From the NCBI GenBank assembly GCA_903945195.1, contig CAJAUT010000013.1, positions 11,473 through 75,472 on the forward strand: a DNA stretch of 64,000 bases. The letters run 5' to 3'. The translations under genes and the position numbers were made by a program. Under the pieces are notes generated by a model. That model had not been told where the DNA came from. It searched no databases and worked only from the letters and a program-made list of their open reading frames with translations. Below, piece by piece: positions 2,246-60,325 of this stretch. This stretch comes from an uncultured bacterium. GTDB lineage: Bacteria; Patescibacteriota; Microgenomatia; UBA1400; UBA12108. Position 1 is the stretch's first letter. Every line of letters starts with the position of its first letter.

Positions 2246-3013
2246 TTATCCTACTTTAAGCCTAGGAAAGAAAGCGGGGGTCTTTTTGACGTATGCGCGC
2301 CAGTCGGCACGACCTGCATACTTCTTTTCTAGCATCGGGATGCCTGAGACAAAGAGAAGTAAGAAATCTATCATAATGGGCCCAATAAAGACTAGGAGAT
2401 TGCCAGAAAGACCAAAGGCTATGAGAGCTACTCCCCACCACAAGGTGGCTTCACCAAAATAATTGGGATGGCGGGTGAGGCTCCAGAGACCTGTCGTCAT
2501 AAGTTTGCCCTTGCTAGACTTTTTCTTTTTAAAGACTGTGAGTTGGTAGTCCCCTACTGCCTCAAAGAAAAAGCCAGTGAGCCAAATAATAATGCCAGGA
2601 ATAAGTAGTAATGGAGAGATGGAAAGGCTACCTGTGAGACCTATGACAATTGGGAGCGAGACTATCTGCATAAGTACCCACTGCAATAGGTATACTTGGA
2701 TAAATGAGCGGATCACCCAGTGACGACCCCAGTTGGCCCTCATCTGCTGATATCTAAAATCCTCACCTTTGCCCCAGTTGCGTAAAGCGATGTGGACTCC
2801 CAGTCGTAGACCCCAGACAGTGACATAGCCGAGAATTAGATTTTTGGCTAGACTCGGCTCTGTGAAAGAATAGGCAACCCAAGCGATCGCGACAAAACCT
2901 AGTCCCCAGAGGATATCGATGATCCCGTTGTTGCGCAGTAGCACAGCTATGAGAAATGTGACAACAAACAAGATAAGGGAGCTATAAGCCGTGTAGAGGA
3001 AAATTGAGTACAT
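2246..3013 (-). CDS. DUF1295 / ICMT-like membrane protein (steroid 5-alpha reductase-like)
   Basis: Polytopic membrane protein with the RHPNYFGE signature; start taken at ATG 3013. Confidence 0.55.
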   Translation of the reverse strand: MYSIFLYTAYSSLILFVVTFLIAVLLRNNGIIDILWGLGFVAIAWVAYSFTEPSLAKNLILGYVTVWGLRLGVHIALRNWGKGEDFRYQQMRANWGRHWVIRSFIQVYLLQWVLMQIVSLPIVIGLTGSLSISPLLLIPGIIIWLTGFFFEAVGDYQLTVFKKKKSSKGKLMTTGLWSLTRHPNYFGEATLWWGVALIAFGLSGNLLVFIGPIMIDFLLLFVSGIPMLEKKYAGRADWRAYVKKTPAFFPRLKVG

Positions 3014-34813: not shown

Positions 34814-35434
34814 CTACTCTGACTGCCAGCTTTTTACAACCTCAGACACCTTGTCCCAGGCGAAGCCCTGTCTAACCAGATAGCCCTGGATTTTGACCTG
34901 CTCTAGCTTGTCTAAAGTCCTATGACTCCCTAGTTTTTTGTCTAGTAAATGCATAATTGTGGCTTTTTCGTCACCCATAGTTGAGACCAAATCAGAGACT
35001 ATATCCTTGGGTACCCCTTTTTGCGAAAGTTCCATTTTGAGCATACTCACAGACCTGGGACGGTGGGTATTTCTGGACTGTATGAACCACTTGGCGAAAC
35101 TGACATCGTCCAGATACCCTTTGGACTTTAATTTGTCGATAACAAGGTTTTGAGAGTCCTCGTCTTTTACCTCGTATTTCCATAGACGATCGCGCACTTC
35201 TTTGACAGTACGGGGACGAAATGAAAGGAAGTTTAGGATCTTACCGTAGATATACTCGTCCGAGTCGGCTTTTTTTAGATCCTCGATTTCAGCTGGAGAA
35301 AGTTCCAACCCTTTTTTTAGGGATTTCTTGCCCACTTCATCTATAGAAAGTGCAAAGACAAAGACATCATCCAAGTAAAGATTGACCCTATTTGGGTTTT
35401 TCTTGCCCTGGACTAAGCGTGTAATGACTGGCAT
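34814..35434 (-). CDS. recX: RecX-like regulatory protein
   Basis: Immediately downstream of recA; RecX-like helical repeats. Confidence 0.6.
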   Translation of the reverse strand: MPVITRLVQGKKNPNRVNLYLDDVFVFALSIDEVGKKSLKKGLELSPAEIEDLKKADSDEYIYGKILNFLSFRPRTVKEVRDRLWKYEVKDEDSQNLVIDKLKSKGYLDDVSFAKWFIQSRNTHRPRSVSMLKMELSQKGVPKDIVSDLVSTMGDEKATIMHLLDKKLGSHRTLDKLEQVKIQGYLVRQGFAWDKVSEVVKSWQSE

Positions 35435-36498
35435 TAGACTGCTGCTTTTTCCTCTTCTTTTTCGACGGCTTTGATTTGATCCCAGATTTCTTTTTCGATT
35501 TTTTTCATGAGATCTGGTTTCTCTTCAAGGAGAGCTTTGGTAGCTTCGCGACCTTGGGCTAGCATCTCACCATTGTATTTAAAGAAGGAGCCTGATTTTT
35601 CGATGATACCTTTGTCTACGGCTACATCTAGGACTCCGCCAGAGCGTGAAATACCATTTGCGGTCATGTCGAACTCGGCCACTTTAAAGGGAGGCGAGAC
35701 TTTGTTTTTGACTATCTTGGCTCTGTGATGAGAGCCTACGATAGTATCGCCTTCTGTGATATTGCCTACTTTGCGCATATCGATACGGACAGAAGAGTAG
35801 AACTTGAGGGCTTGACCGCCGGCTGTGGTCTCTGGATTACCAAACATCACACCGATCTTCATGCGGAGCTGATTGGTGAAGATCATGACAGTGTTGCTCT
35901 TGCTGATGGCACCTGTGAGTTTGCGAAGTGCTTGGGACATGAGGCGTGCTTGCATACCCATGACGGCATCGCCCATCTCCCCTTCGATCTCGGCCTTGGG
36001 GACGAGAGCGGCGACTGAGTCTACGACGATCACGTCTACGGCCCCTGAACGGATCAAGGTCTCGGCAATCTCTAGGGCTTGCTCACCGGTGTCTGGCTGA
36101 GAGATGAGGAGCTCGTCTAGATTGACTCCGACCGCCTTGGCGCGGGCTGGGTCTAGGGCATGCTCTGCGTCAATGAAAGCGGCGGTACCACCTTGTTTTT
36201 GAGCTTGCGCGATGACGTGTAAACAGACAGTGGTTTTGCCGGAAGCCTCAGGTCCGTAGATCTCTGTGATGCGGCCACAAGGGAAGCCACCGATACCTAG
36301 AGCCAGGTCGAGTGCTATGGCGGAGGTAGGGATACTTTTGATGTCCATGTGATGGGAGGCGCCGAGCTTCATGATGGAGCCAGTACCAAATTGTTTGTCG
36401 ATCTGCTCCATGGCCACTTTAATGGCCTGAAGTTTCTCAGATTTTAAATCTGGTTTTGAGTTTACTGTTTTTTCTGCTTTGTCGTTTGCTTTGGCCAT
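35434..36498 (-). CDS. recA: recombinase RecA
   Basis: Walker [20 protein letters not shown]1/L2 loops. Confidence 0.9.
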
Positions 36499-36527: not shown

Positions 36528-36557
36528 AATATGACCAAAAACTACCCGAATGTCAAC
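36528..36557 (-). promoter_or_regulatory. recA promoter: perfect -35 TTGACA inside conserved module GTTGACATTCGGGTAGT, 17-nt spacer, -10 CATATT; AGGAGG Shine-Dalgarno follows
   Basis: Read on minus strand; same 17-nt module at 37194..37210. Confidence 0.5.
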
Positions 36558-36642
36558 AGATCAAAATGTGACTTTTATGGTCCCACCTTTGTTTTTTGAG
36601 CATATTTTGATATACTACATGTATCATCATGACTGGACTAGC

Positions 36643-37173
36643 CTAAGGTTTCGACCGACCGCGAATGCCAGTCTTTTTATATTCAAGCGACTTTTTCAAT
36701 AAATCTATTCTCACTATAAAGTTGTTGTATTTTCGCAGCAAACTAGAGTAGTGCATAGTAGGTGCAAGTATTTTTAACAACTTACCTTGTTTTTCTAGAT
36801 ACTCTATCAAACAGAAAAAATCTCCATCCCCAGAAACTATGATAGCTTTAGAATAGTGATCATATTCCACCATCGAATGTAATACCAATTCGGCATCCAC
36901 ATTTCCTTTGATGACTGTGGCCTTCCCTTCCTTTCTTTCCAAAGTTGGCTTAAAGATACAAGTATAGCCAGCTAAATTGAGTGACTTGTAGAGACTTTCA
37001 TTGCCTGGAACCATACCAATAAATAGGAAGGCTTTCGAAACACTATATTTATCTGTGAGATATCTTCTGAATTTTGCAAAATCTAAGTGCCAACCTTGTG
37101 ACTTTACTCCAAGGTTTAAGTTTTGACTATCGATAAACGCATATACTATTTTTTCTTTTACTTTAATTCCCAT
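36643..37173 (-). CDS. NYN/LabA-like domain protein
   Basis: YAFIDSQN ... IVSGDGDF pattern of NYN (DUF88) nucleases. Confidence 0.65.
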   Translation of the reverse strand: MGIKVKEKIVYAFIDSQNLNLGVKSQGWHLDFAKFRRYLTDKYSVSKAFLFIGMVPGNESLYKSLNLAGYTCIFKPTLERKEGKATVIKGNVDAELVLHSMVEYDHYSKAIIVSGDGDFFCLIEYLEKQGKLLKILAPTMHYSSLLRKYNNFIVRIDLLKKSLEYKKTGIRGRSKP

Positions 37174-37180
37174 ACTATTA

Positions 37181-37210
37181 ATTTATTCCAAATACTACCC
37201 GAATGTCAAC
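37181..37210 (-). promoter_or_regulatory. promoter for the NYN gene (GTTGACATTCGGGTAGT module, 17-nt spacer, -10 ATAAAT); geometry predicts a leaderless mRNA starting at the ATG
   Basis: -10 ends 7 nt before the A of ATG 37173; no Shine-Dalgarno present. Confidence 0.45.
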
Positions 37211-37273
37211 CCCTCCTTCGCTCTGCAAGCTACGGGAGGGCACGGTGGAACAATTTAGAACAAAATTCCAATA

Positions 37274-37355
37274 AGGTCTGACCTGGTCTCCAGTTTGTAT
37301 TTTGAAGTCGACTAAACAATCCGCCATGGCGGATATTCCTTAGCAGGTCAGACCT
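37274..37355. repeat. about 85-nt long-hairpin element, copy 2, immediately downstream of rpsI
   Basis: See 32729..32813; apical stem here is the perfect palindrome atccgccatggcggat. Confidence 0.55.
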
Positions 37356-37371
37356 TTGGGAACTGAAAATT

Positions 37372-56235: not shown

Positions 56236-56327
56236 ATAGATTTAATCCTAAATCTTAAATTCTCAAATTCTCAAGTTAAGAGAGCTTTGAGCGACAAATA
56301 ATTACTCAAACTAATGAGGCAGGGTGT

Positions 56328-56357
56328 ATTGTACTCTATACTCAGGCACTTGAGCAA
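56328..56357 (-). promoter_or_regulatory. candidate fusA-tuf promoter (TTGCTC, 18-nt spacer, TACAAT)
   Basis: Read on minus strand in the spacer between the small ORF and fusA. Confidence 0.35.
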
Positions 56358-56369
56358 GAGATCTGGGAG

Positions 56370-56546
56370 TTACTCGGCTGCGTTCTTCACGGCTTCTTCC
56401 TCTAAAAATTGAGCTCGTGCTCGTGCGTTCTTAGCATCTTCCGTAAGTCCATCTTTTTCCGCCAATTTTGCTGTCAAGATCAAATCGGCATGCTGATCTA
56501 CCACGAGAGTGGTTGGTGTTGCTGTAACTGCAGTCTCTACTACCAT
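56370..56546 (-). CDS. small protein (58 aa) with strong Shine-Dalgarno (GGAGGA, 7 nt spacing); not in ORF track
   Basis: MVVETAVTATPTTLVVDQHADLILTAKLAEKDGLTEDAKNARARAQFLEEEAVKNAAE; own promoter 56579..56607. Confidence 0.45.
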   Translation of the reverse strand: MVVETAVTATPTTLVVDQHADLILTAKLAEKDGLTEDAKNARARAQFLEEEAVKNAAE

Positions 56547-56578
56547 AATTCTTCCTCCAATTTATTAATCTAAAGAGG

Positions 56579-56607
56579 ATTATCGAGAGAGAGAGAGAGT
56601 TTGTCAA
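56579..56607 (-). promoter_or_regulatory. strong sigma70-like promoter TTGACA, 17-nt spacer, GATAAT whose spacer is almost entirely a (CT)7 microsatellite
   Basis: -35 at 56602..56607, -10 at 56579..56584, repeat 56585..56599 (GA)7G on the plus strand. Confidence 0.5.
56585..56599. repeat. (GA)7G dinucleotide microsatellite forming the promoter spacer
   Basis: gagagagagagagag. Confidence 0.9.
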
Positions 56608-56640
56608 ATTGATAGGGAAAAACAAGGTTCGGAACTTTGT

Positions 56641-57441
56641 TTATTTAAGAAAATTTTTCTTAGTGACGATGGATTTGCCTAGGCGGGTTTCTAGAGCTGT
56701 GCGGGCGTCGCCAGCGATCTTGCCACCAGCCACAGCATCAGATTTGAGTTTTGGATAACCTTTTGAGTCCTCGGTACGATGGATCTCGGTAGTGGCGCGC
56801 TCGCCGAGCATGGTAAAGATGAGCTCAAGATCGTCCATGTGGTCACGGAGATTTTGATGTTTGAGCGATTTGATCTTTCGATATTCGCTCGGCGTCACTC
56901 CAAAAGTAGCTTTGCTGATCTCGGCAGTTAAAATCTCATATTCTCTACCCTCGTTGGCTCCGCGGTCCTTCCACTCTTGTGTTAACTCTTCCCGAATTGC
57001 GATGCCACGCATCCTTTTCTCGATCCAACTGTCTGGATACCCCTTGGCTTTATATAGTGCTCTGGTGCGCTTGGTGGCAAGCTCGGGGTCTTCGATCTCC
57101 TGAATCCGCTCGTAGCCAACTTTTGCAAGCCAGCGTTTGAAAGGCTCGGCTTTTGGTGAAGGGATGGACTGGATGATGCGAAAAATACCTTCTGTATTTG
57201 CACAAACAATATTTTGCACTCCGCCGGCAGTTTTGATTGGAAGGGGGTGTTCAATTTGAACCCACCCTTTGAATAACTCTTCATCTCGATTTAACATGTT
57301 CTGGAGATATTGCTTTGGGTTTTGTGAATCAGTTAATGCAGCAATTACATCAACAATCACAAACCACCATTCATTTTTATAAATAGTTTTTCGAATTTCT
57401 TTTTGATGGAAGATGGCTATACGAGTCTCTGAGTCTGTCAT
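56641..57441 (-). CDS. Bro-N domain / DinD-like (DNA-damage-inducible protein D-like) protein; ATG 57441 preferred over TTG 57459
   Basis: N-terminal Bro-N-like pattern (IAIFHQKEIRKTIYKNEWWFVIVDVIAAL); C-terminal similarity to E. coli DinD (NLRDHM..EL...E...). Confidence 0.5.
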   Translation of the reverse strand: MTDSETRIAIFHQKEIRKTIYKNEWWFVIVDVIAALTDSQNPKQYLQNMLNRDEELFKGWVQIEHPLPIKTAGGVQNIVCANTEGIFRIIQSIPSPKAEPFKRWLAKVGYERIQEIEDPELATKRTRALYKAKGYPDSWIEKRMRGIAIREELTQEWKDRGANEGREYEILTAEISKATFGVTPSEYRKIKSLKHQNLRDHMDDLELIFTMLGERATTEIHRTEDSKGYPKLKSDAVAGGKIAGDARTALETRLGKSIVTKKNFLK

Positions 57442-57461
57442 ATTTCCATGATCCCCCAATG

Positions 57462-57488
57462 TAACACGAATGTCAATATGTGTATAAT
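57462..57488. promoter_or_regulatory. divergent promoter region: minus-strand ATTGACATTCGTGT module (leaderless geometry for 56641..57441) and plus-strand perfect TATAAT (57483..57488) for tgt
   Basis: Third instance of the TTGACATTCG module; -10 GATCAT ends 7 nt before ATG 57441. Confidence 0.4.
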
Positions 57489-57532
57489 CTCAAGATATCC
57501 CCCTTCGTTCTGGGGGAACTACGGAGGAACAC

Positions 57533-58678
57533 GTGCAAGATAATTTTAGAATGTTAAATGGGCAGACACTGCCATATCCACTGTTTTTCCCGGATGCTAC
57601 GAGGGGTGAGGTAAGACAGCTGACATTTGAGGATGTAAAAATGGTTGGGTTACCAGGGATACTCGTAAATACCTTTCATCTACTGAGACTAGTGGGGACA
57701 GAGAAAACCGTGGCAGCTGGTGGAATACATAAATACCTGGGATGGGACGGCGCTATGATATCTGACTCTGGAGGATTTCAGGTAATGTCGATCGCCAAGA
57801 AATATGGGGGAAACAGCACTGTGACGGATGAGGGTGTGACATTCACTCTCGACGGCATTGATCATCATTTCTCCCCCGAAGATTCAATTAAATATCAGAT
57901 GGCGATGGGGACTGACCTAATGGTGGTGCTAGATGACTTCACCCCACCGGATGCCACACATGAAGAAGCGGAGGTCACGGTAAATAGGACGACACTTTGG
58001 GCAAAGAGATGTAAGGAAGAATTCAACAGGCTGCAAAGTTCCGATCACTCGCCTAAAATCACGCAAGGATCGGAACTAGGGAACAAAAGACCTTATCTGA
58101 TTGGGGTGGTACAGGGAGGAGAATACGAAGACCTGAGACTAAAGAGCATTAAAGAGCTGATGGAAATTGGGTTTGATGGGTACGGTTATGGAGGATTCCC
58201 CATGAAAGATGGGAAATTTGATGAGGCAATGGCAAAGTTTATGGCGGACAATTTGCCAAAAGATACCGTATTGTATGGCCTAGGAATAGGTAAACCAGAT
58301 GATATTGTGAAATGCGTGAACCTAGGATGGCAGATATTTGATTGTGTCCTACCAACAAGGGACGCCCGCCACGGACGGCTTTATGTATATACCAATGAAC
58401 CTGCCCGCAGTGCTTACAGCACAGCTGTTGCAGGCGGGTCGATTCAACGGATCAATGTGCAAAAAGATGGATTTTATGAATATTACAACCCTAGACAGGC
58501 GTTACATCTCGAAGAAACTGGGCCGGTTAGTAGTGCGTGTGATTGCGAACTGTGCACGAGTTTGAGCCGCAAAGAATTTGCTACCATGTGGAGAGCGCGA
58601 GATGAAAAAGTGCTGCGACTAGCCACGATCCATAACCTTAGGTTTTATGCGATACTGATGGAAAAATTGAGGAAATGA
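57533..58678 (+). CDS. tgt: queuine tRNA-ribosyltransferase (GTG start with GGAGGA Shine-Dalgarno)
   Basis: DSGGFQ, LMVVLDDFTPP, VQGG, GFDGYGYGG, FDCVLPTRDARHG, CDCELC...H zinc site; about 28-aa lineage-specific insertion before the zinc site. Confidence 0.8.
   Translation: MQDNFRMLNGQTLPYPLFFPDATRGEVRQLTFEDVKMVGLPGILVNTFHLLRLVGTEKTVAAGGIHKYLGWDGAMISDSGGFQVMSIAKKYGGNSTVTDEGVTFTLDGIDHHFSPEDSIKYQMAMGTDLMVVLDDFTPPDATHEEAEVTVNRTTLWAKRCKEEFNRLQSSDHSPKITQGSELGNKRPYLIGVVQGGEYEDLRLKSIKELMEIGFDGYGYGGFPMKDGKFDEAMAKFMADNLPKDTVLYGLGIGKPDDIVKCVNLGWQIFDCVLPTRDARHGRLYVYTNEPARSAYSTAVAGGSIQRINVQKDGFYEYYNPRQALHLEETGPVSSACDCELCTSLSRKEFATMWRARDEKVLRLATIHNLRFYAILMEKLRK
58399..58440. repeat. 42-nt repeat, exact copy of 11..52, in-frame inside tgt (encodes EPARSAYSTAVAGGS)
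   Basis: Direct comparison. Confidence 0.8.
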
Positions 58679-58690
58679 TAAGATAAAAAT

Positions 58691-58999
58691 ATGGTAGAGA
58701 TAATTGCGATTGTAGTGGCACTATGGCTACTTGGGGTGATAAATATCCCATGGCTCACTATGCCCCACTTCCCCGTTTTTTCTGTGCTTGGTTATAGCGT
58801 GACTATCCAGAGACTCCTGATCTTTGGGATTGTCATCTGGTTGGCATCGAGCTTGGGATCGCCTTTTCGCCAGATGCTGTGGGTATTTTTTATCTTATGG
58901 CTCCTGTCGACACTCGGAATAATAGGGACAATCGCGATGGGGACTTTGATTCTTGTTTCGATTGTGGTGGGACTGATACTTTCGGTCGTGCAAAAATAA
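58691..58999 (+). CDS. small hydrophobic membrane protein (3 TM)
   Basis: Hydrophobicity; 12 nt after tgt. Confidence 0.4.
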   Translation: MVEIIAIVVALWLLGVINIPWLTMPHFPVFSVLGYSVTIQRLLIFGIVIWLASSLGSPFRQMLWVFFILWLLSTLGIIGTIAMGTLILVSIVVGLILSVVQK

Positions 59000-59003
59000 T
59001 ATT

Positions 59004-59767
59004 TCACAAAACTAGATTGGGAAATGATAATTCAAGATTTTCGTTGATTTGACGACCGGTGAGGCGATATACCTTATAGCCGAGACCATAGAGATATTGA
59101 TCTTTTCTCTTATCTCTAATCTTACTTTGAGGTCGTAAATGCCAAAACTCGCCATCGCACTCGATAATTGTCTTTGTGCCGGTGAGTAAAAAGTCGGCTC
59201 GATATTTGGCAAATTTCACTTCCTGTTGAAATTCAATGTGTTTACTCTCGAGATATTTACGAACTTTTTCTTCGAGAGATGACTCGCCATTGAATTTGAT
59301 AAAACATTCCCGCGAGCAAAATTTGCCCCTTCCGGTATTGATCACCGAATTAGGAATGGTAAATTCCTGATGACAATTGGCACACTTTTTGGTGACAAAC
59401 TCTGACATACCAAGGTCGTGACATTTTTTAGAACAGTATATGGTGTGAACGGCCACGGCTGGTGAACGCTTTACTGCCTTGCCACACTGTTGACAAATTT
59501 TAGTGACAAGATGATCTCTGTTTACTTTGTTCTGGCACGTGCGTCTGCAATAAATTCCGAATCCGTGGCGAACTTGGGTGGGCGATGGGATAAATGTCTT
59601 TTTACAGATAAACATCTCTTTTCGAACTTTAATCTTGTCGAGTTATGGTAACAAGGAAGCGAGCAATAATTGGTTGGTCGGACAAGATATGGCATTTTTA
59701 TAAAATCTTTACCACATCCATCACATTTAACTTGTTCTCTATATCCAATGGGACTGACTTTACGCAT
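59004..59767 (-). pseudogene. frameshifted gene: N-terminal tandem Cys4 zinc-ribbon repeats plus C-terminal DUF559 (Vsr/PD-(D/E)xK-like) endonuclease domain
   Basis: ORFs 59522..59767 and 59004..59615 overlap out of frame; a 1-nt deletion near 59612 restores a continuous K-x-C-x2-C-G-K-x-F...Y-C-S-x2-C repeat; YRADFLLTGTKTIIECDGEFWH matches the DUF559 core. Confidence 0.5.
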
Positions 59768-59848
59768 ATTATTCGGTATCTACGTATTAGTGTAGAACCA
59801 AATAATATTGCTGTCAATAAATTGCTTGAAAGTGAAATTAGCTTGATC

Positions 59849-60325
59849 CTACCATCTAAAATGTGAAAACGCTTTGTTTGCGTCAGCTTGTCGATGTACA
59901 TCGTCGCGTTTCTTGATGGTGGCACCTTGGCCGTTGTAGGCATCCATGATCTCAGCAGCAAGTTTCTCACCATAGGTGTGATACTCGGAGTTTGAGCGTT
60001 TATTGGAGAACTCGACCAACCAGCGGATGGAAAGTGAGAACTGGCGACGTGGGGGAACTGGCATAGGTACCTGGTAAGCAGCGCCACCAATGCGGCGACT
60101 ACGAACTTCGGTCTTTGGTTTGATGTTGTTTAGAGCGGTCATTAAAACGTCTAAAGGTTTAAGACCAGTCTTCTCGCCTAGGATATCCATGGCTTTGTAG
60201 ATCTGTTTCTCGGCTACGACTTTTTTACCGTCCATCATGGCACGATTGATGAGTTTGGCAACTTCTAAAGAGTTGTATTTAACGTCACCTTCGACTCTTT
60301 TAATACCTGCTAATTTTGCGCGCAT
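59849..60325 (-). CDS. rpsG: 30S ribosomal protein S7
   Basis: uS7 pattern. Confidence 0.9.
   Translation of the reverse strand: MRAKLAGIKRVEGDVKYNSLEVAKLINRAMMDGKKVVAEKQIYKAMDILGEKTGLKPLDVLMTALNNIKPKTEVRSRRIGGAAYQVPMPVPPRRQFSLSIRWLVEFSNKRSNSEYHTYGEKLAAEIMDAYNGQGATIKKRDDVHRQADANKAFSHFRW

What the first reader, a model, noticed from the sequence alone, without database searches (positions are those of the whole stretch)
36528..37210. Shared extended -35 module GTTGACATTCGGGTAGT in front of recA and the NYN gene; a third variant in front of the DinD-like gene; two predicted leaderless mRNAs
The 17-mer is identical at 36541..36557 and 37194..37210 and continues with 22/25 identity into the spacer. 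A variant ATTGACATTCGTGT lies at 57464..57477. For the NYN gene and the DinD-like gene the -10 ends 7 nt before the ATG and there is no Shine-Dalgarno, which predicts leaderless transcripts. recA instead has a 22-nt leader with AGGAGG. A conserved sequence covering -35 plus spacer in front of recA and a DinD-like gene suggests a common regulator, a damage-response regulon, rather than chance.
Basis: seen in the sequence. Interest (0 to 1): 0.5.

Follow-up and report, generated by a model that had tools for sequence, protein, structure and literature searches.

The report
SOS-type promoter-operator module in a CPR bacterium
Three promoters in this Collierbacteria-like (candidate phyla radiation) genome share a conserved promoter with a built-in repeat that is also found in front of recA, lexA, dinD and many selfish genes in related uncultured bacteria, so it is most likely the operator of their DNA-damage (SOS) regulon.

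Summary
TTGACATTCGKGT occurs exactly three times in the window (0 in 100 shuffles), each time as the -35 and spacer of a sigma-70-type promoter, in front of recA, an NYN gene and a Bro-N gene. It is not the local promoter consensus: only these 3 of the 7 intergenic TTGACA hexamers carry it.

The same module precedes recA or NYN-recA in about 10 related species whose flanks have fully diverged. More than 100 metagenome sites carry it in front of a recurrent gene set: recA, lexA, a true dinD, a repair-type radical-SAM gene, Bro-N, RhuM, KilA-N, Gp49/HigB, NYN and rRNA-intron LAGLIDADG endonucleases.

The conserved part is a tandem repeat, TTCGGGTwnnnTTYGG, with an 11-bp period. All 7 lexA loci chosen by protein similarity alone carry it, in three different registers relative to TTGACA, so it behaves as a separable operator with lexA autoregulation. 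LexA is the most likely regulator, but this is inferred; no lexA lies in the window.

The leaderless prediction is supported by an ATG fixed 35-37 nt from the -35 start (NYN 7/7, Bro-N 10/11, LexA 3/3).

This is a known kind of system. A 2017 paper on the Patescibacteria SOS network could not be read. Side findings: exchangeable cassettes upstream of recA, and module copies inside rRNA introns.

The parts
36528..36557 (-). recA promoter-operator module: -35 TTGACA 36551-36556; tandem repeat TTCGGGTAGTTTTTGG 36535-36550; -10 CATATT 36528-36533
   Evidence: Sequence; promoter scan TTGACA-17-CATATT, 10/12; operator-only PWM score 28.9; near-identical module before recA in L017, L046, L011, L054, L062 and L180
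36503..36508 (-). AGGAGG Shine-Dalgarno in the roughly 23-nt recA leader
   Evidence: Sequence; the AGGAGG leader is conserved in all relatives where the module directly precedes recA
34814..36498 (-). recA (35434-36498) and recX (34814-35434), the operon downstream of the module
   Evidence: Pfam RecA 4e-130; RecX HTH1-3; conserved synteny L13-S9-(NYN)-recA-recX-RNase Y
37180..37210 (-). NYN promoter-operator module: -35 37204-37209; repeat TTCGGGTAGTATTTGG 37188-37203; -10 TAAATT 37180-37185 (or ATAAAT 37181-37186); ATG at 37173
   Evidence: Sequence; promoter scan 10/12; PWM score 32.2; same module and same 36-nt distance to the ATG in 7/7 non-redundant NYN genes
36643..37173 (-). NYN/LabA-family gene, predicted leaderless; an exchangeable cassette in the S9-recA slot
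   Evidence: Pfam NYN 1e-12; named LabA/DUF88 family by JGI; absent, decayed or replaced by Bro-N in relatives
57448..57477 (-). Bro-N gene promoter-operator module, weaker variant: -35 57471-57476; repeat TTCGTGTTACATTGGG 57455-57470; -10 GATCAT 57448-57453; ATG at 57441
   Evidence: Sequence; promoter scan 10/12; PWM score 17.4; orthologous Bro-N genes (L089 95% identical, L108) carry the canonical TTCGGGTTGTATTGGG
56641..57441 (-).
   Evidence: Pfam Bro-N 2e-14; translation; no DinD NCBIfam hit and no BLASTP similarity to the true DinD of L078
57461..57488 (+). Divergent promoter-like site GTAACA-16-TATAAT for the TGT-family gene (57533-58678); its -35 overlaps the Bro-N operator
   Evidence: Promoter scan 10/12; Pfam TGT 4.5e-83
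37211..37262 (+). About 50 nt flank beyond the NYN module, homologous to the TGT leader and start region at 57498-57552; a relic of an intragenomic duplication or recombination
   Evidence: Alignment; fewer than 1% of shuffles reach the observed score under three scoring schemes

Best explanation
Each of the three sites is a strong sigma-70-type promoter: a consensus TTGACA, a 17-18 nt spacer and an A/T-rich -10 box. The spacer is occupied by a tandem direct repeat, TTCGGGTwnnnTTYGG, with two TTYGG units 11 bp (one helical turn) apart. This repeat is the operator of an SOS-like DNA-damage regulon of Microgenomates (candidate phyla radiation) bacteria. The repressor, most probably LexA, binds the repeat between and over the -35 and -10 boxes and blocks RNA polymerase. 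After DNA damage, RecA-ssDNA filaments would trigger LexA self-cleavage and release the promoters. In this genome that would induce recA-recX (through a roughly 23-nt leader with AGGAGG), the NYN gene and the Bro-N gene. The last two would be made as leaderless mRNAs that start at or next to the A of the ATG. SHOWN: the module exists, is non-random and is not the general promoter form. It is conserved across species in front of recA and NYN-recA. It recurs in front of lexA, recA, dinD, a repair-type radical-SAM gene and many selfish genes. The repeat is kept in lexA promoters at three different registers relative to the -35. The ATG distance is fixed in the leaderless class. INFERRED: that LexA is the binding protein, that binding represses, that DNA damage induces, and the exact transcription starts.
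For: Non-randomness: 3 exact matches against 0 in 100 shuffles. Specificity: only 3 of the 7 intergenic TTGACA hexamers carry the element, and the operator-only PWM finds only these 3 sites. Cross-species conservation with diverged flanks: the exact 17-mer plus nTTTGG lies before recA in L011 (RecA 73% identical over the partial 79-aa hit at the locus end), L017 and L046, and before NYN in L014, L031, L036 and L040. Named Ca. Collierbacteria genomes chosen by protein only also have it (L180-L183). Regulon content from at least 120 metagenome sites: RecA 11, Bro-N 12, RhuM 12, NYN 8, Gp49/HigB 8, LexA 3, KilA-N 2, LAGLIDADG 18, DUF3276 3, a true DinD (NF008573, 305 bits), a TIGR03916-like repair radical-SAM protein and a Dcm methyltransferase. 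Unbiased lexA test: 7 of 7 lexA loci from two LexA clades (L170-L179) carry TTYGGGT-N4-TTnG[GC]. The offset from TTGACA is 0, +2 or +12/13 nt, so the repeat is conserved independently of the -35. No classical LexA box (GAAC-N4-GTTC, CTGT-N8-ACAG, TGTTC-N4-GAACA, GTAC-N4-GTAC) is present in these promoters. LexA proteins are known to use direct-repeat operators with the same 11-bp period in Alphaproteobacteria (GTTC-N7-GTTC; PMC8565304). Leaderless class: the ATG lies 35-37 nt from the first T of TTGACA in NYN 7/7, Bro-N 10/11, LexA 3/3, KilA-N 2/2 and the 86-aa family 3/4. RecA lies at 54-60 nt (the ORF finder's first in-frame start; the annotated ATG is at about 58-60) and has AGGAGG.
Against: No lexA gene lies in the 64-kb window, and I could not check the rest of this genome. 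The lexA loci tested are Curtissbacteria-type and unnamed Microgenomates, not proven Collierbacteria. Outside lexA promoters the repeat is almost always in one fixed register with TTGACA (117 of 123 sites). That is unusual for LexA boxes and would also fit a promoter cassette copied as a unit. The metagenome scan pattern itself required TTGACA and TT.GG, so frequencies at those positions are not independent evidence. The regulon is dominated by selfish or mobile genes, and classical members such as uvrA, uvrB and dinB were not seen behind a module. recJ in the window has none. In rRNA-intron copies the same sequence forms a covarying RNA hairpin (14 of 14 sites), so at least some copies are under a different constraint. 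There is no binding, expression or 5'-end data.
Confidence: 0.7

Rival explanations
1. Same promoter-operator architecture and a common regulon, but the protein that binds the repeat is not LexA. Candidates are another autoregulated DNA-binding protein in the set (Bro-N, KilA-N, or the HTH partner of Gp49/HigB), or a repressor analogous to DdrO or HdiR.
For: Bro-N (12 sites), KilA-N (2) and toxin-antitoxin operons (8) carry the module and encode, or are paired with, DNA-binding proteins. No lexA is in the window. The motif resembles none of the classical LexA boxes I tested.
Against: lexA is the only regulator gene shown to carry the repeat in loci chosen independently of the motif (7 of 7, two clades, three registers). 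The recA + lexA + dinD combination is the signature of LexA regulons (PMC8565304). Bro-N and KilA-N genes are patchy and cassette-like, absent from many genomes that keep the module before recA.
Confidence: 0.13
2. A portable strong-promoter cassette with no dedicated regulator. The roughly 30-bp module is copied together with leaderless selfish genes by recombination or insertion, and its uniformity reflects recent common descent rather than protein binding. recA merely lies next to an insertion hot spot.
For: The -35 and repeat sit in a fixed register in 117 of 123 sites. The S9-recA slot holds NYN, Bro-N, remnants or nothing in different relatives, with conserved junctions. About 50 nt of extra flank is shared between the NYN and Bro-N sites in this genome. 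Homing endonucleases, RhuM/Fic, Gp49 and Bro-N dominate the set.
Against: The module is retained before the core gene recA across lineages with RecA 73-96% identical while flanks are unalignable. In lexA promoters the repeat is kept while its distance to TTGACA changes by 2 or about 12 nt, which copying of a unit cannot produce. Variable positions inside the module (positions 14-17 and 20) diverge freely while TTCGGGT and TT.GG do not; this also holds in the sites found by the 17-mer or by protein, where TT.GG was not imposed.
Confidence: 0.1
3. Ordinary promoters: the motif is just the local -35 consensus plus chance similarity in the spacer.
For: TTGACA is the general sigma-70 -35 consensus, and the three sites are AT-rich intergenic DNA.
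Against: 0 of 100 shuffles give any exact match. The other intergenic TTGACA sites in the window lack the element. The 17-mer is identical across species before orthologous genes.
Confidence: 0.02
4. An RNA-level element: the conserved sequence acts as a transcribed structure rather than as DNA.
For: In 14 of 14 rRNA-intron copies, positions 12-17 pair perfectly and covary with the bases after the second repeat.
Against: Only 1 of 75 non-intron sites, and none of the three window sites, can form that hairpin. In the leaderless class the element lies upstream of the predicted transcript. Rfam finds nothing in the window.
Confidence: 0.03

Closest known systems
LexA/SOS regulon of the Patescibacteria (Sanchez-Osuna, Barbe & Erill 2017, Environ Microbiol 19:3465; cited in PMC8565304 as ref. 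9)
   Same: Same superphylum and same type of network: a LexA-governed, damage-inducible regulon reconstructed by comparative genomics, with recA and lexA as expected core members.
   Different: I could not read the paper (citing papers give no motif). I therefore do not know whether its LexA-binding motif is the TTCGGGTwnnnTTYGG repeat found here, or whether it reports NYN, Bro-N, RhuM, intron endonucleases, the fixed promoter register or leaderless starts.
Alphaproteobacterial LexA box GTTC-N7-GTTC (direct repeat)
   Same: A direct repeat, not a palindrome, with an 11-bp period, located in promoters of recA and lexA (PMC8565304 introduction). The element here also reads TTC-N8-TTY.
   Different: The conserved bases differ: TTCGGGT and TTYGG rather than GTTC. 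No exact GTTC-N7-GTTC is present at the module. The phylum is unrelated. Here the repeat is almost always fused to a consensus -35.
Gram-positive Cheo box (CGAAC-N4-GTTCG) and E. coli SOS box (CTGT-N8-ACAG)
   Same: Operators that overlap the promoters of recA, lexA and dinD-type genes, with autoregulated lexA.
   Different: Those are palindromes. Neither pattern occurs in the 9 lexA promoters or the window promoters examined.
Actinobacterial RecA-NDp promoter motif / PafBC activator (from my own knowledge: tTGTCRgtg-N8-TAnnnT)
   Same: A damage-regulon signature that is itself an extended -35-like element at a fixed distance from the -10, found before recA and repair genes.
   Different: RecA-NDp replaces a poor -35 and works by activation through a WYL-domain protein. 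Here the -35 is a perfect TTGACA, so repression is expected. The sequence differs, and lexA itself carries the element.
E. coli DinD (DNA damage-inducible protein D)
   Same: A true DinD equivalog is controlled by the module in L078. The window's gene shares the Bro-N domain.
   Different: The window protein has no DinD NCBIfam hit and no BLASTP similarity to that DinD. It belongs to a separate Bro-N family.

Membership tests
LexA-controlled SOS regulon | A LexA orthologue (LexA_DNA_bind + Peptidase_S24) is encoded in the genome | tested here: inconclusive
Present in related Microgenomates lineages that carry the module.
LexA-controlled SOS regulon | The operator lies in the promoter of lexA itself (autoregulation) | tested here: met
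   7 of 7 lexA loci chosen by protein only (L170-L179), plus 3 found through the motif (L080, L094, L165), carry TTYGGGT-N4-TTnG[GC] 22-34 nt before the ATG. These are relatives, not this genome.
LexA-controlled SOS regulon | The operator lies in the promoter of recA | tested here: met
   Window 36535-36550; also L011, L017, L046, L054, L062, L066, L139, L169 and L180, or before NYN/Bro-N-recA in L014, L031, L036, L040, L135 and L182.
LexA-controlled SOS regulon | The operator overlaps core promoter elements, so that binding represses | tested here: met
   The repeat fills the spacer between TTGACA and the -10 box, or straddles the -10 in L178 and L179. Repression itself was not tested.
LexA-controlled SOS regulon | Other regulon members are DNA-damage functions | tested here: met
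   A true DinD (NF008573), a TIGR03916-like repair radical-SAM protein and recX downstream of recA. However, most members are selfish or mobile genes, and no uvrA, uvrB or dinB was seen directly behind a module.
LexA-controlled SOS regulon | LexA binds the motif specifically, and RecA-dependent cleavage derepresses after DNA damage | not testable with these tools
   Needs EMSA or footprinting and expression data.
Leaderless mRNA | The transcription start coincides with, or lies within a few nt of, the start codon, and there is no Shine-Dalgarno | tested here: inconclusive
   Geometry fits: 6-7 nt separate the -10 box from the ATG at 37173 and 57441, and the ATG lies 35-37 nt from the first T of TTGACA in NYN 7/7, Bro-N 10/11 and LexA 3/3. 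No 5'-end data.
DinD (NF008573) | Full-length match to the DinD equivalog model | tested here: not met
   Window protein 56641-57441: no NCBIfam hit and BLASTP E = 0.75 against the L078 DinD. Only the Bro-N domain is shared.

The most novel reading that the evidence does not exclude
The module is a portable, LexA-operated 'SOS cassette head'. A fixed unit of consensus promoter, tandem-repeat operator and leaderless start is exchanged among selfish genes (NYN, Bro-N, RhuM/Fic, KilA-N, HigB-like toxins). It fills a recombination slot directly upstream of recA. It also drives LAGLIDADG homing endonucleases inside 16S and 23S rRNA introns, where it has been moulded into an RNA hairpin compatible with intron folding. 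DNA damage would then switch on intron homing and other selfish-element functions across the Microgenomates, through a direct-repeat LexA motif not yet described.
Probability: 0.3. Interest if true: 0.65.

Novelty: new member of a known kind. Interest (0 to 1): 0.45.

Why it matters
CPR/Patescibacteria cannot be grown in pure culture, so their gene regulation is known almost only from sequence. A sharply defined promoter-operator of about 30 bp marks the damage regulon and gives a direct handle. Scanning any Microgenomates genome for it would list the genes the cell turns on after DNA damage. It also supplies well-defined candidate leaderless promoters for testing translation initiation in CPR, and a concrete DNA probe for LexA binding assays. 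Two observations go beyond routine SOS biology, if they hold up. First, selfish cassettes share the module and swap in the slot just upstream of recA. Second, copies of the module sit in front of homing-endonuclease genes inside rRNA introns, which suggests that DNA damage is coupled to selfish-element activity in these reduced genomes.

Tried and rejected
(1) The genome-collection scan for the exact 17-mer gave 48 hits against roughly 70 expected by chance, by my own estimate. Forty were chance hits inside coding regions of unrelated, mostly GC-rich taxa (Pseudomonas, Corynebacterium, Mycobacterium and others), and only 8 were real.

(2) Most metagenome hits with the T variant (TTCGTGT), and the GC-rich hits (e.g. 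L055, L115, L144, L146), look like chance matches in coding DNA. The window's own T-variant site is accepted because its orthologues carry the canonical form.

(3) My first -10 filter (TAnnnT at a fixed offset) wrongly rejected many real sites with CATAGT- or ATAAAT-type boxes. It was dropped in favour of an AT-richness filter.

(4) Literature: the key 2017 Patescibacteria SOS paper is not held. Papers that cite it give no motif. Searches for 'candidate phyla radiation + LexA' and for the motif string were empty or useless.

(5) Classical LexA boxes were searched for in the lexA, recA, NYN and Bro-N promoters and not found. One isolated GTTC-N7-GTTC lies 89 nt upstream of the Bro-N ATG and is taken as chance.

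(6) Palindrome or dyad symmetry in the module: none seen by inspection.

(7) Alternative sigma-factor (sigma-B or ECF type) readings: rejected by inspection, because both hexamers are sigma-70-like.

(8) The viral-contig scan with the strict pattern gave 0 hits.

(9) Rfam gave no hit in the window.

(10) The 49-aa gene called across the NYN promoter on the source contig is judged spurious.

(11) The TGT leader hairpin is not significant (z = -1.5).

Full report
**1. What is in the window**

All relevant genes lie on the minus strand. The window holds the large ribosomal supercluster, in the order rpoC, S12, S7 ... EF-G, EF-Tu, S10-spc-alpha ... L13, S9. This is followed by an NYN/LabA-family gene (36643-37173), recA (35434-36498), recX (34814-35434), RNase Y and HU. 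An island of about 3.5 kb interrupts S7 and EF-G. It holds a DUF559/Vsr-like gene, a TGT-family gene on the plus strand (57533-58678) and a Bro-N domain gene. RecA's 90% cluster contains Candidatus Collierbacteria and Microgenomates entries, so the organism is a Collierbacteria-like member of the CPR. The source is an ENA metagenome contig of 129.8 kb.

**2.

- GTTGACATTCGGGTAGT is at 36541-36557 and 37194-37210, and ATTGACATTCGTGT is at 57464-57477, all on the minus strand.
- Exact matches to TTGACATTCGKGT: 3 observed, none in 100 dinucleotide-preserving shuffles. The same holds for the 17-mer, with 2 observed.
- The recA and NYN copies are 22/25 identical.
- The promoter scan calls each site as a sigma-70-type promoter: TTGACA-17-CATATT (recA), TTGACA-18-TAAATT (NYN) and TTGACA-17-GATCAT (Bro-N), each 10/12.
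- The Bro-N gene starts at the ATG at 57441, giving 266 aa.

**3. It is not the local promoter consensus**

Of 39 TTGACA hexamers in the window, 7 are intergenic, and only the three reported ones are followed by TTCG[GT]GT. A weight matrix built from the part of the module downstream of the -35 (positions 7-30) finds only these three sites. Their scores are 32.2, 28.9 and 17.4, and each is preceded by TTGACA.

**4. Conservation in relatives**

A scan of 185,579 species genomes for the 17-mer gave 48 hits, close to my chance estimate of about 70. Eight of them are clearly homologous:

- In L011, L017 and L046 the module lies before recA. The nTTTGG, the -10 box and the AGGAGG leader are also conserved.
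- In L014, L031, L036 (titled Microgenomates) and L040 it lies before NYN, with the ATG at the same distance.
- RecA in these genomes is 91-96% identical to the window's, and 73% in L011 (over the partial 79-aa hit at the locus end). The DNA flanking the module is unalignable.
- Two named Ca. Collierbacteria genomes, chosen only by RecA protein, also carry it between S9 and recA (L180-L183).

**5. The regulon**

All known sites fit TTGACATTCGKGTWRNNTTNGG. About 100 of these are low-GC and intergenic. The genes behind them cluster into recurrent families:

| Family | Sites |
|---|---|
| RecA | 11 |
| Bro-N proteins (including the window's) | 12 |
| RhuM, some with a Fic domain | 12 |
| NYN | 8 |
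| Gp49/HigB-like toxins | 8 |
| An 86-aa unknown protein | 7 |
| LAGLIDADG endonucleases | 18 |
| DUF3276 | 3 |
| LexA (LexA_DNA_bind + Peptidase_S24) | 3 |
| KilA-N | 2 |
| True DinD equivalog (NF008573, 305 bits, cutoff 242) | 1 |
| TIGR03916-like 'DNA modification/repair' radical-SAM protein | 1 |
| Dcm methyltransferase | 1 |
| DUF559/Vsr-type endonuclease | 1 |

The combination of recA, lexA and dinD with repair genes and selfish elements is what an SOS regulon looks like.

**6. The conserved element is a separable tandem repeat**

Downstream of TTGACA the invariant bases are TTCGGGT at positions 7-13 and TTYGG at positions 18-22. That makes two TTYGG units 11 bp apart. Positions 14-17 and 20 vary. 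The second unit was not imposed in the sites found by the 17-mer or by protein, yet it is present there.

In 858 kb of fetched CPR DNA the repeat is preceded by TTGACA in 117 of 123 cases, and by a one-base variant or a one-base shift in the rest.

The decisive test used lexA genes selected by protein similarity only, from two LexA clades: Curtissbacteria-type, and a clade labelled 'Patescibacteria / Microgenomates DG_75'. All 7 independent loci carry the repeat just upstream of the lexA ATG, at three different offsets from TTGACA:

- 0 nt in L177
- +2 nt in L170, L172, L174 and L176
- +12/13 nt in L178 and L179, where it straddles the -10 box

A sequence that keeps its own internal spacing while sliding relative to the -35 is an operator, not a sigma-factor contact. 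Its presence at lexA is classical autoregulation. None of the classical LexA boxes is present in these promoters. Direct-repeat LexA motifs with the same 11-bp period are known in Alphaproteobacteria (PMC8565304).

**7. Mechanism**

The most likely reading (confidence about 0.7) is that a LexA dimer binds the tandem repeat in the spacer of a near-consensus promoter and occludes RNA polymerase. RecA-stimulated self-cleavage would then release recA-recX, NYN and Bro-N. The identity of the binding protein, the sign of regulation and the induction by damage are all inferred. No lexA lies in this window.

The Bro-N site differs from its canonical orthologues by G11T and two spacer changes, and it scores lower. 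It may therefore be a weaker operator. Its operator also overlaps the -35 of a divergent promoter-like site for the TGT-family gene.

**8. Leaderless mRNAs**

For NYN and Bro-N, 6-7 nt separate the called -10 box from the ATG, and there is no Shine-Dalgarno. Across non-redundant sites, the distance from the first T of TTGACA to the ATG is as follows:

- NYN: 36 nt in 7/7
- Bro-N: 35-37 nt in 10/11
- LexA: 36-37 nt in 3/3
- KilA-N: 36-37 nt in 2/2
- The 86-aa family: 35-36 nt in 3/4
- RecA: 54-60 nt by the ORF finder's first in-frame start (the annotated ATG is at about 58-60), with AGGAGG

Such fixed geometry in unrelated genes strongly supports leaderless transcripts. It remains a prediction until 5' ends are mapped.

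**9. Rivals**

- A non-LexA regulator (0.13) cannot be excluded without binding data.
- A regulator-free portable promoter cassette (0.10) draws support from the fixed register, the cassette swapping and the shared flank. It cannot explain the sliding register at lexA or the deep conservation at recA.
- The generic-consensus reading (0.02) is refuted.
- An RNA-level role (0.03) applies only to the intron copies.

**10. Comparison and novelty**

This is an SOS-type promoter-operator, a known kind of system. An SOS network in the Patescibacteria has been published (Sanchez-Osuna et al. 2017). I could not read that paper, so I cannot say whether the motif is already described, and I file the finding as a new member of a known kind.

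Features that may be new:

- the direct-repeat motif fused to a consensus -35;
- the leaderless cassette architecture;
- the exchangeable slot upstream of recA;
- module copies before homing-endonuclease genes inside rRNA introns.

Noticed in passing
L053, L057 (two sites), L075, L091, L092, L104, L105, L106, L119, L134, L142 (two sites), L160; also L019, L095, L109, L140, L150: The module occurs inside 16S and 23S rRNA genes of CPR genomes, in group I introns and other insertions, upstream of LAGLIDADG homing-endonuclease ORFs. In the 14 non-redundant LAGLIDADG_2-type sites, module positions 12-17 form a perfect, covarying 6-bp hairpin with the bases after the second repeat (for example GTAATC-TTCG-GATTAT, GTTACT-TTTG-GGTAAC). 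Only 1 of 75 other sites does so. It is unresolved whether this is an internal SOS-controlled promoter shaped to fit the intron fold or a separate RNA element.
   Followed up: partly
window 36643-37210; L135 5000-6035; L085, L097, L182 2068-2500: The slot between rpsI (S9) and recA is dynamic. It holds module+NYN (window, L014, L031, L036, L040), module+Bro-N (L135), only an NYN remnant (L085, L097, L182), or nothing (L011, L017, L046, L180). The L135 Bro-N gene ends with the NYN C-terminal tail (KKTGISGRSKP*) and the same 3' junction, AAAAGACTGGCAT.(C/A)GCGGTCGGTCGAAACCTTAGG. This indicates cassette replacement between the module and a conserved 3' site. The window is the only case seen with a module before both NYN and recA.
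   Followed up: partly
window 37211-37262 versus 57498-57552 (+ strand): About 50 nt beyond the module are shared between the NYN upstream region and the leader and first codons of the TGT-family gene next to Bro-N (fewer than 1% of shuffles reach the score). The NYN-side copy ends in a 9-codon relic ORF. This looks like an intragenomic duplication or recombination that involved the divergent Bro-N/TGT promoter region.
   Followed up: partly
window 56300-59850: The str operon is interrupted between S7 and EF-G by an island: a DUF559/Vsr-like endonuclease with a zinc finger (59004-59615), a 102-aa ORF, a TGT-family transglycosylase (below the Tgt equivalog cutoff, with a weak DpdA hit), the Bro-N gene and a 64-aa ORF. 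L089 has the same island. L065 and L133 have a decayed Bro-N gene before EF-G. L141 has a full module before a DUF559-type gene next to S7.
   Followed up: partly
window 37264-37364 (minus strand): Immediately after rpsI lies a roughly 100-nt element with a 13-bp outer stem (AAGGTCTGACCTG / CAGGTCAGACCTT) and an inner GC hairpin followed by T-rich sequence. It folds at -39.8 kcal/mol (z = -4.5) and is conserved in L017 and L182. It is probably the terminator or 3' structure of the ribosomal-protein operon. Rfam has no match.
   Followed up: partly
L170, L172, L174, L176, L177 (positions about 2800-3000): In several Microgenomates, lexA is transcribed divergently from uvrB-uvrA. L170 and L172 carry a second, upstream TTGACAACTTCGGGTTTTTAG half-site in the shared intergenic region. 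uvrB seems to start 8 nt after a TATAAT in L170 and may also be leaderless. It was not examined whether the uvrBA promoter is under the same control.
   Followed up: no
L014, L031, L036, L040, L135, L182 (about 60-90 nt upstream of recA): Relatives with a cassette between the module and recA share a different conserved sequence before recA (…CCGATAGTAGGATATACTGAG…), followed by a GAAAGGA-type ribosome-binding site. It may be a secondary, module-independent recA promoter.
   Followed up: no
L062, L100, L121, L180, L085, L162 (positions -30 to -1 relative to the module): Several recA and NYN modules are preceded by GGTTCGAACCATCGAACTATTTTGATATAG. The window's recA and other sites keep only ATTTTGAT at about -15 to -8. 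This could be an UP-like element or a second binding site; it was not analysed.
   Followed up: no
L011, L014, L031, L040 (record titles): Four GTDB-representative MAGs whose ribosomal, RecA and NYN genes are clearly Collierbacteria/Microgenomates-like (RecA 73-94% identical to the window's) are titled 'uncultured Pseudomonadales bacterium' in their records. These are probably mislabelled.
   Followed up: no
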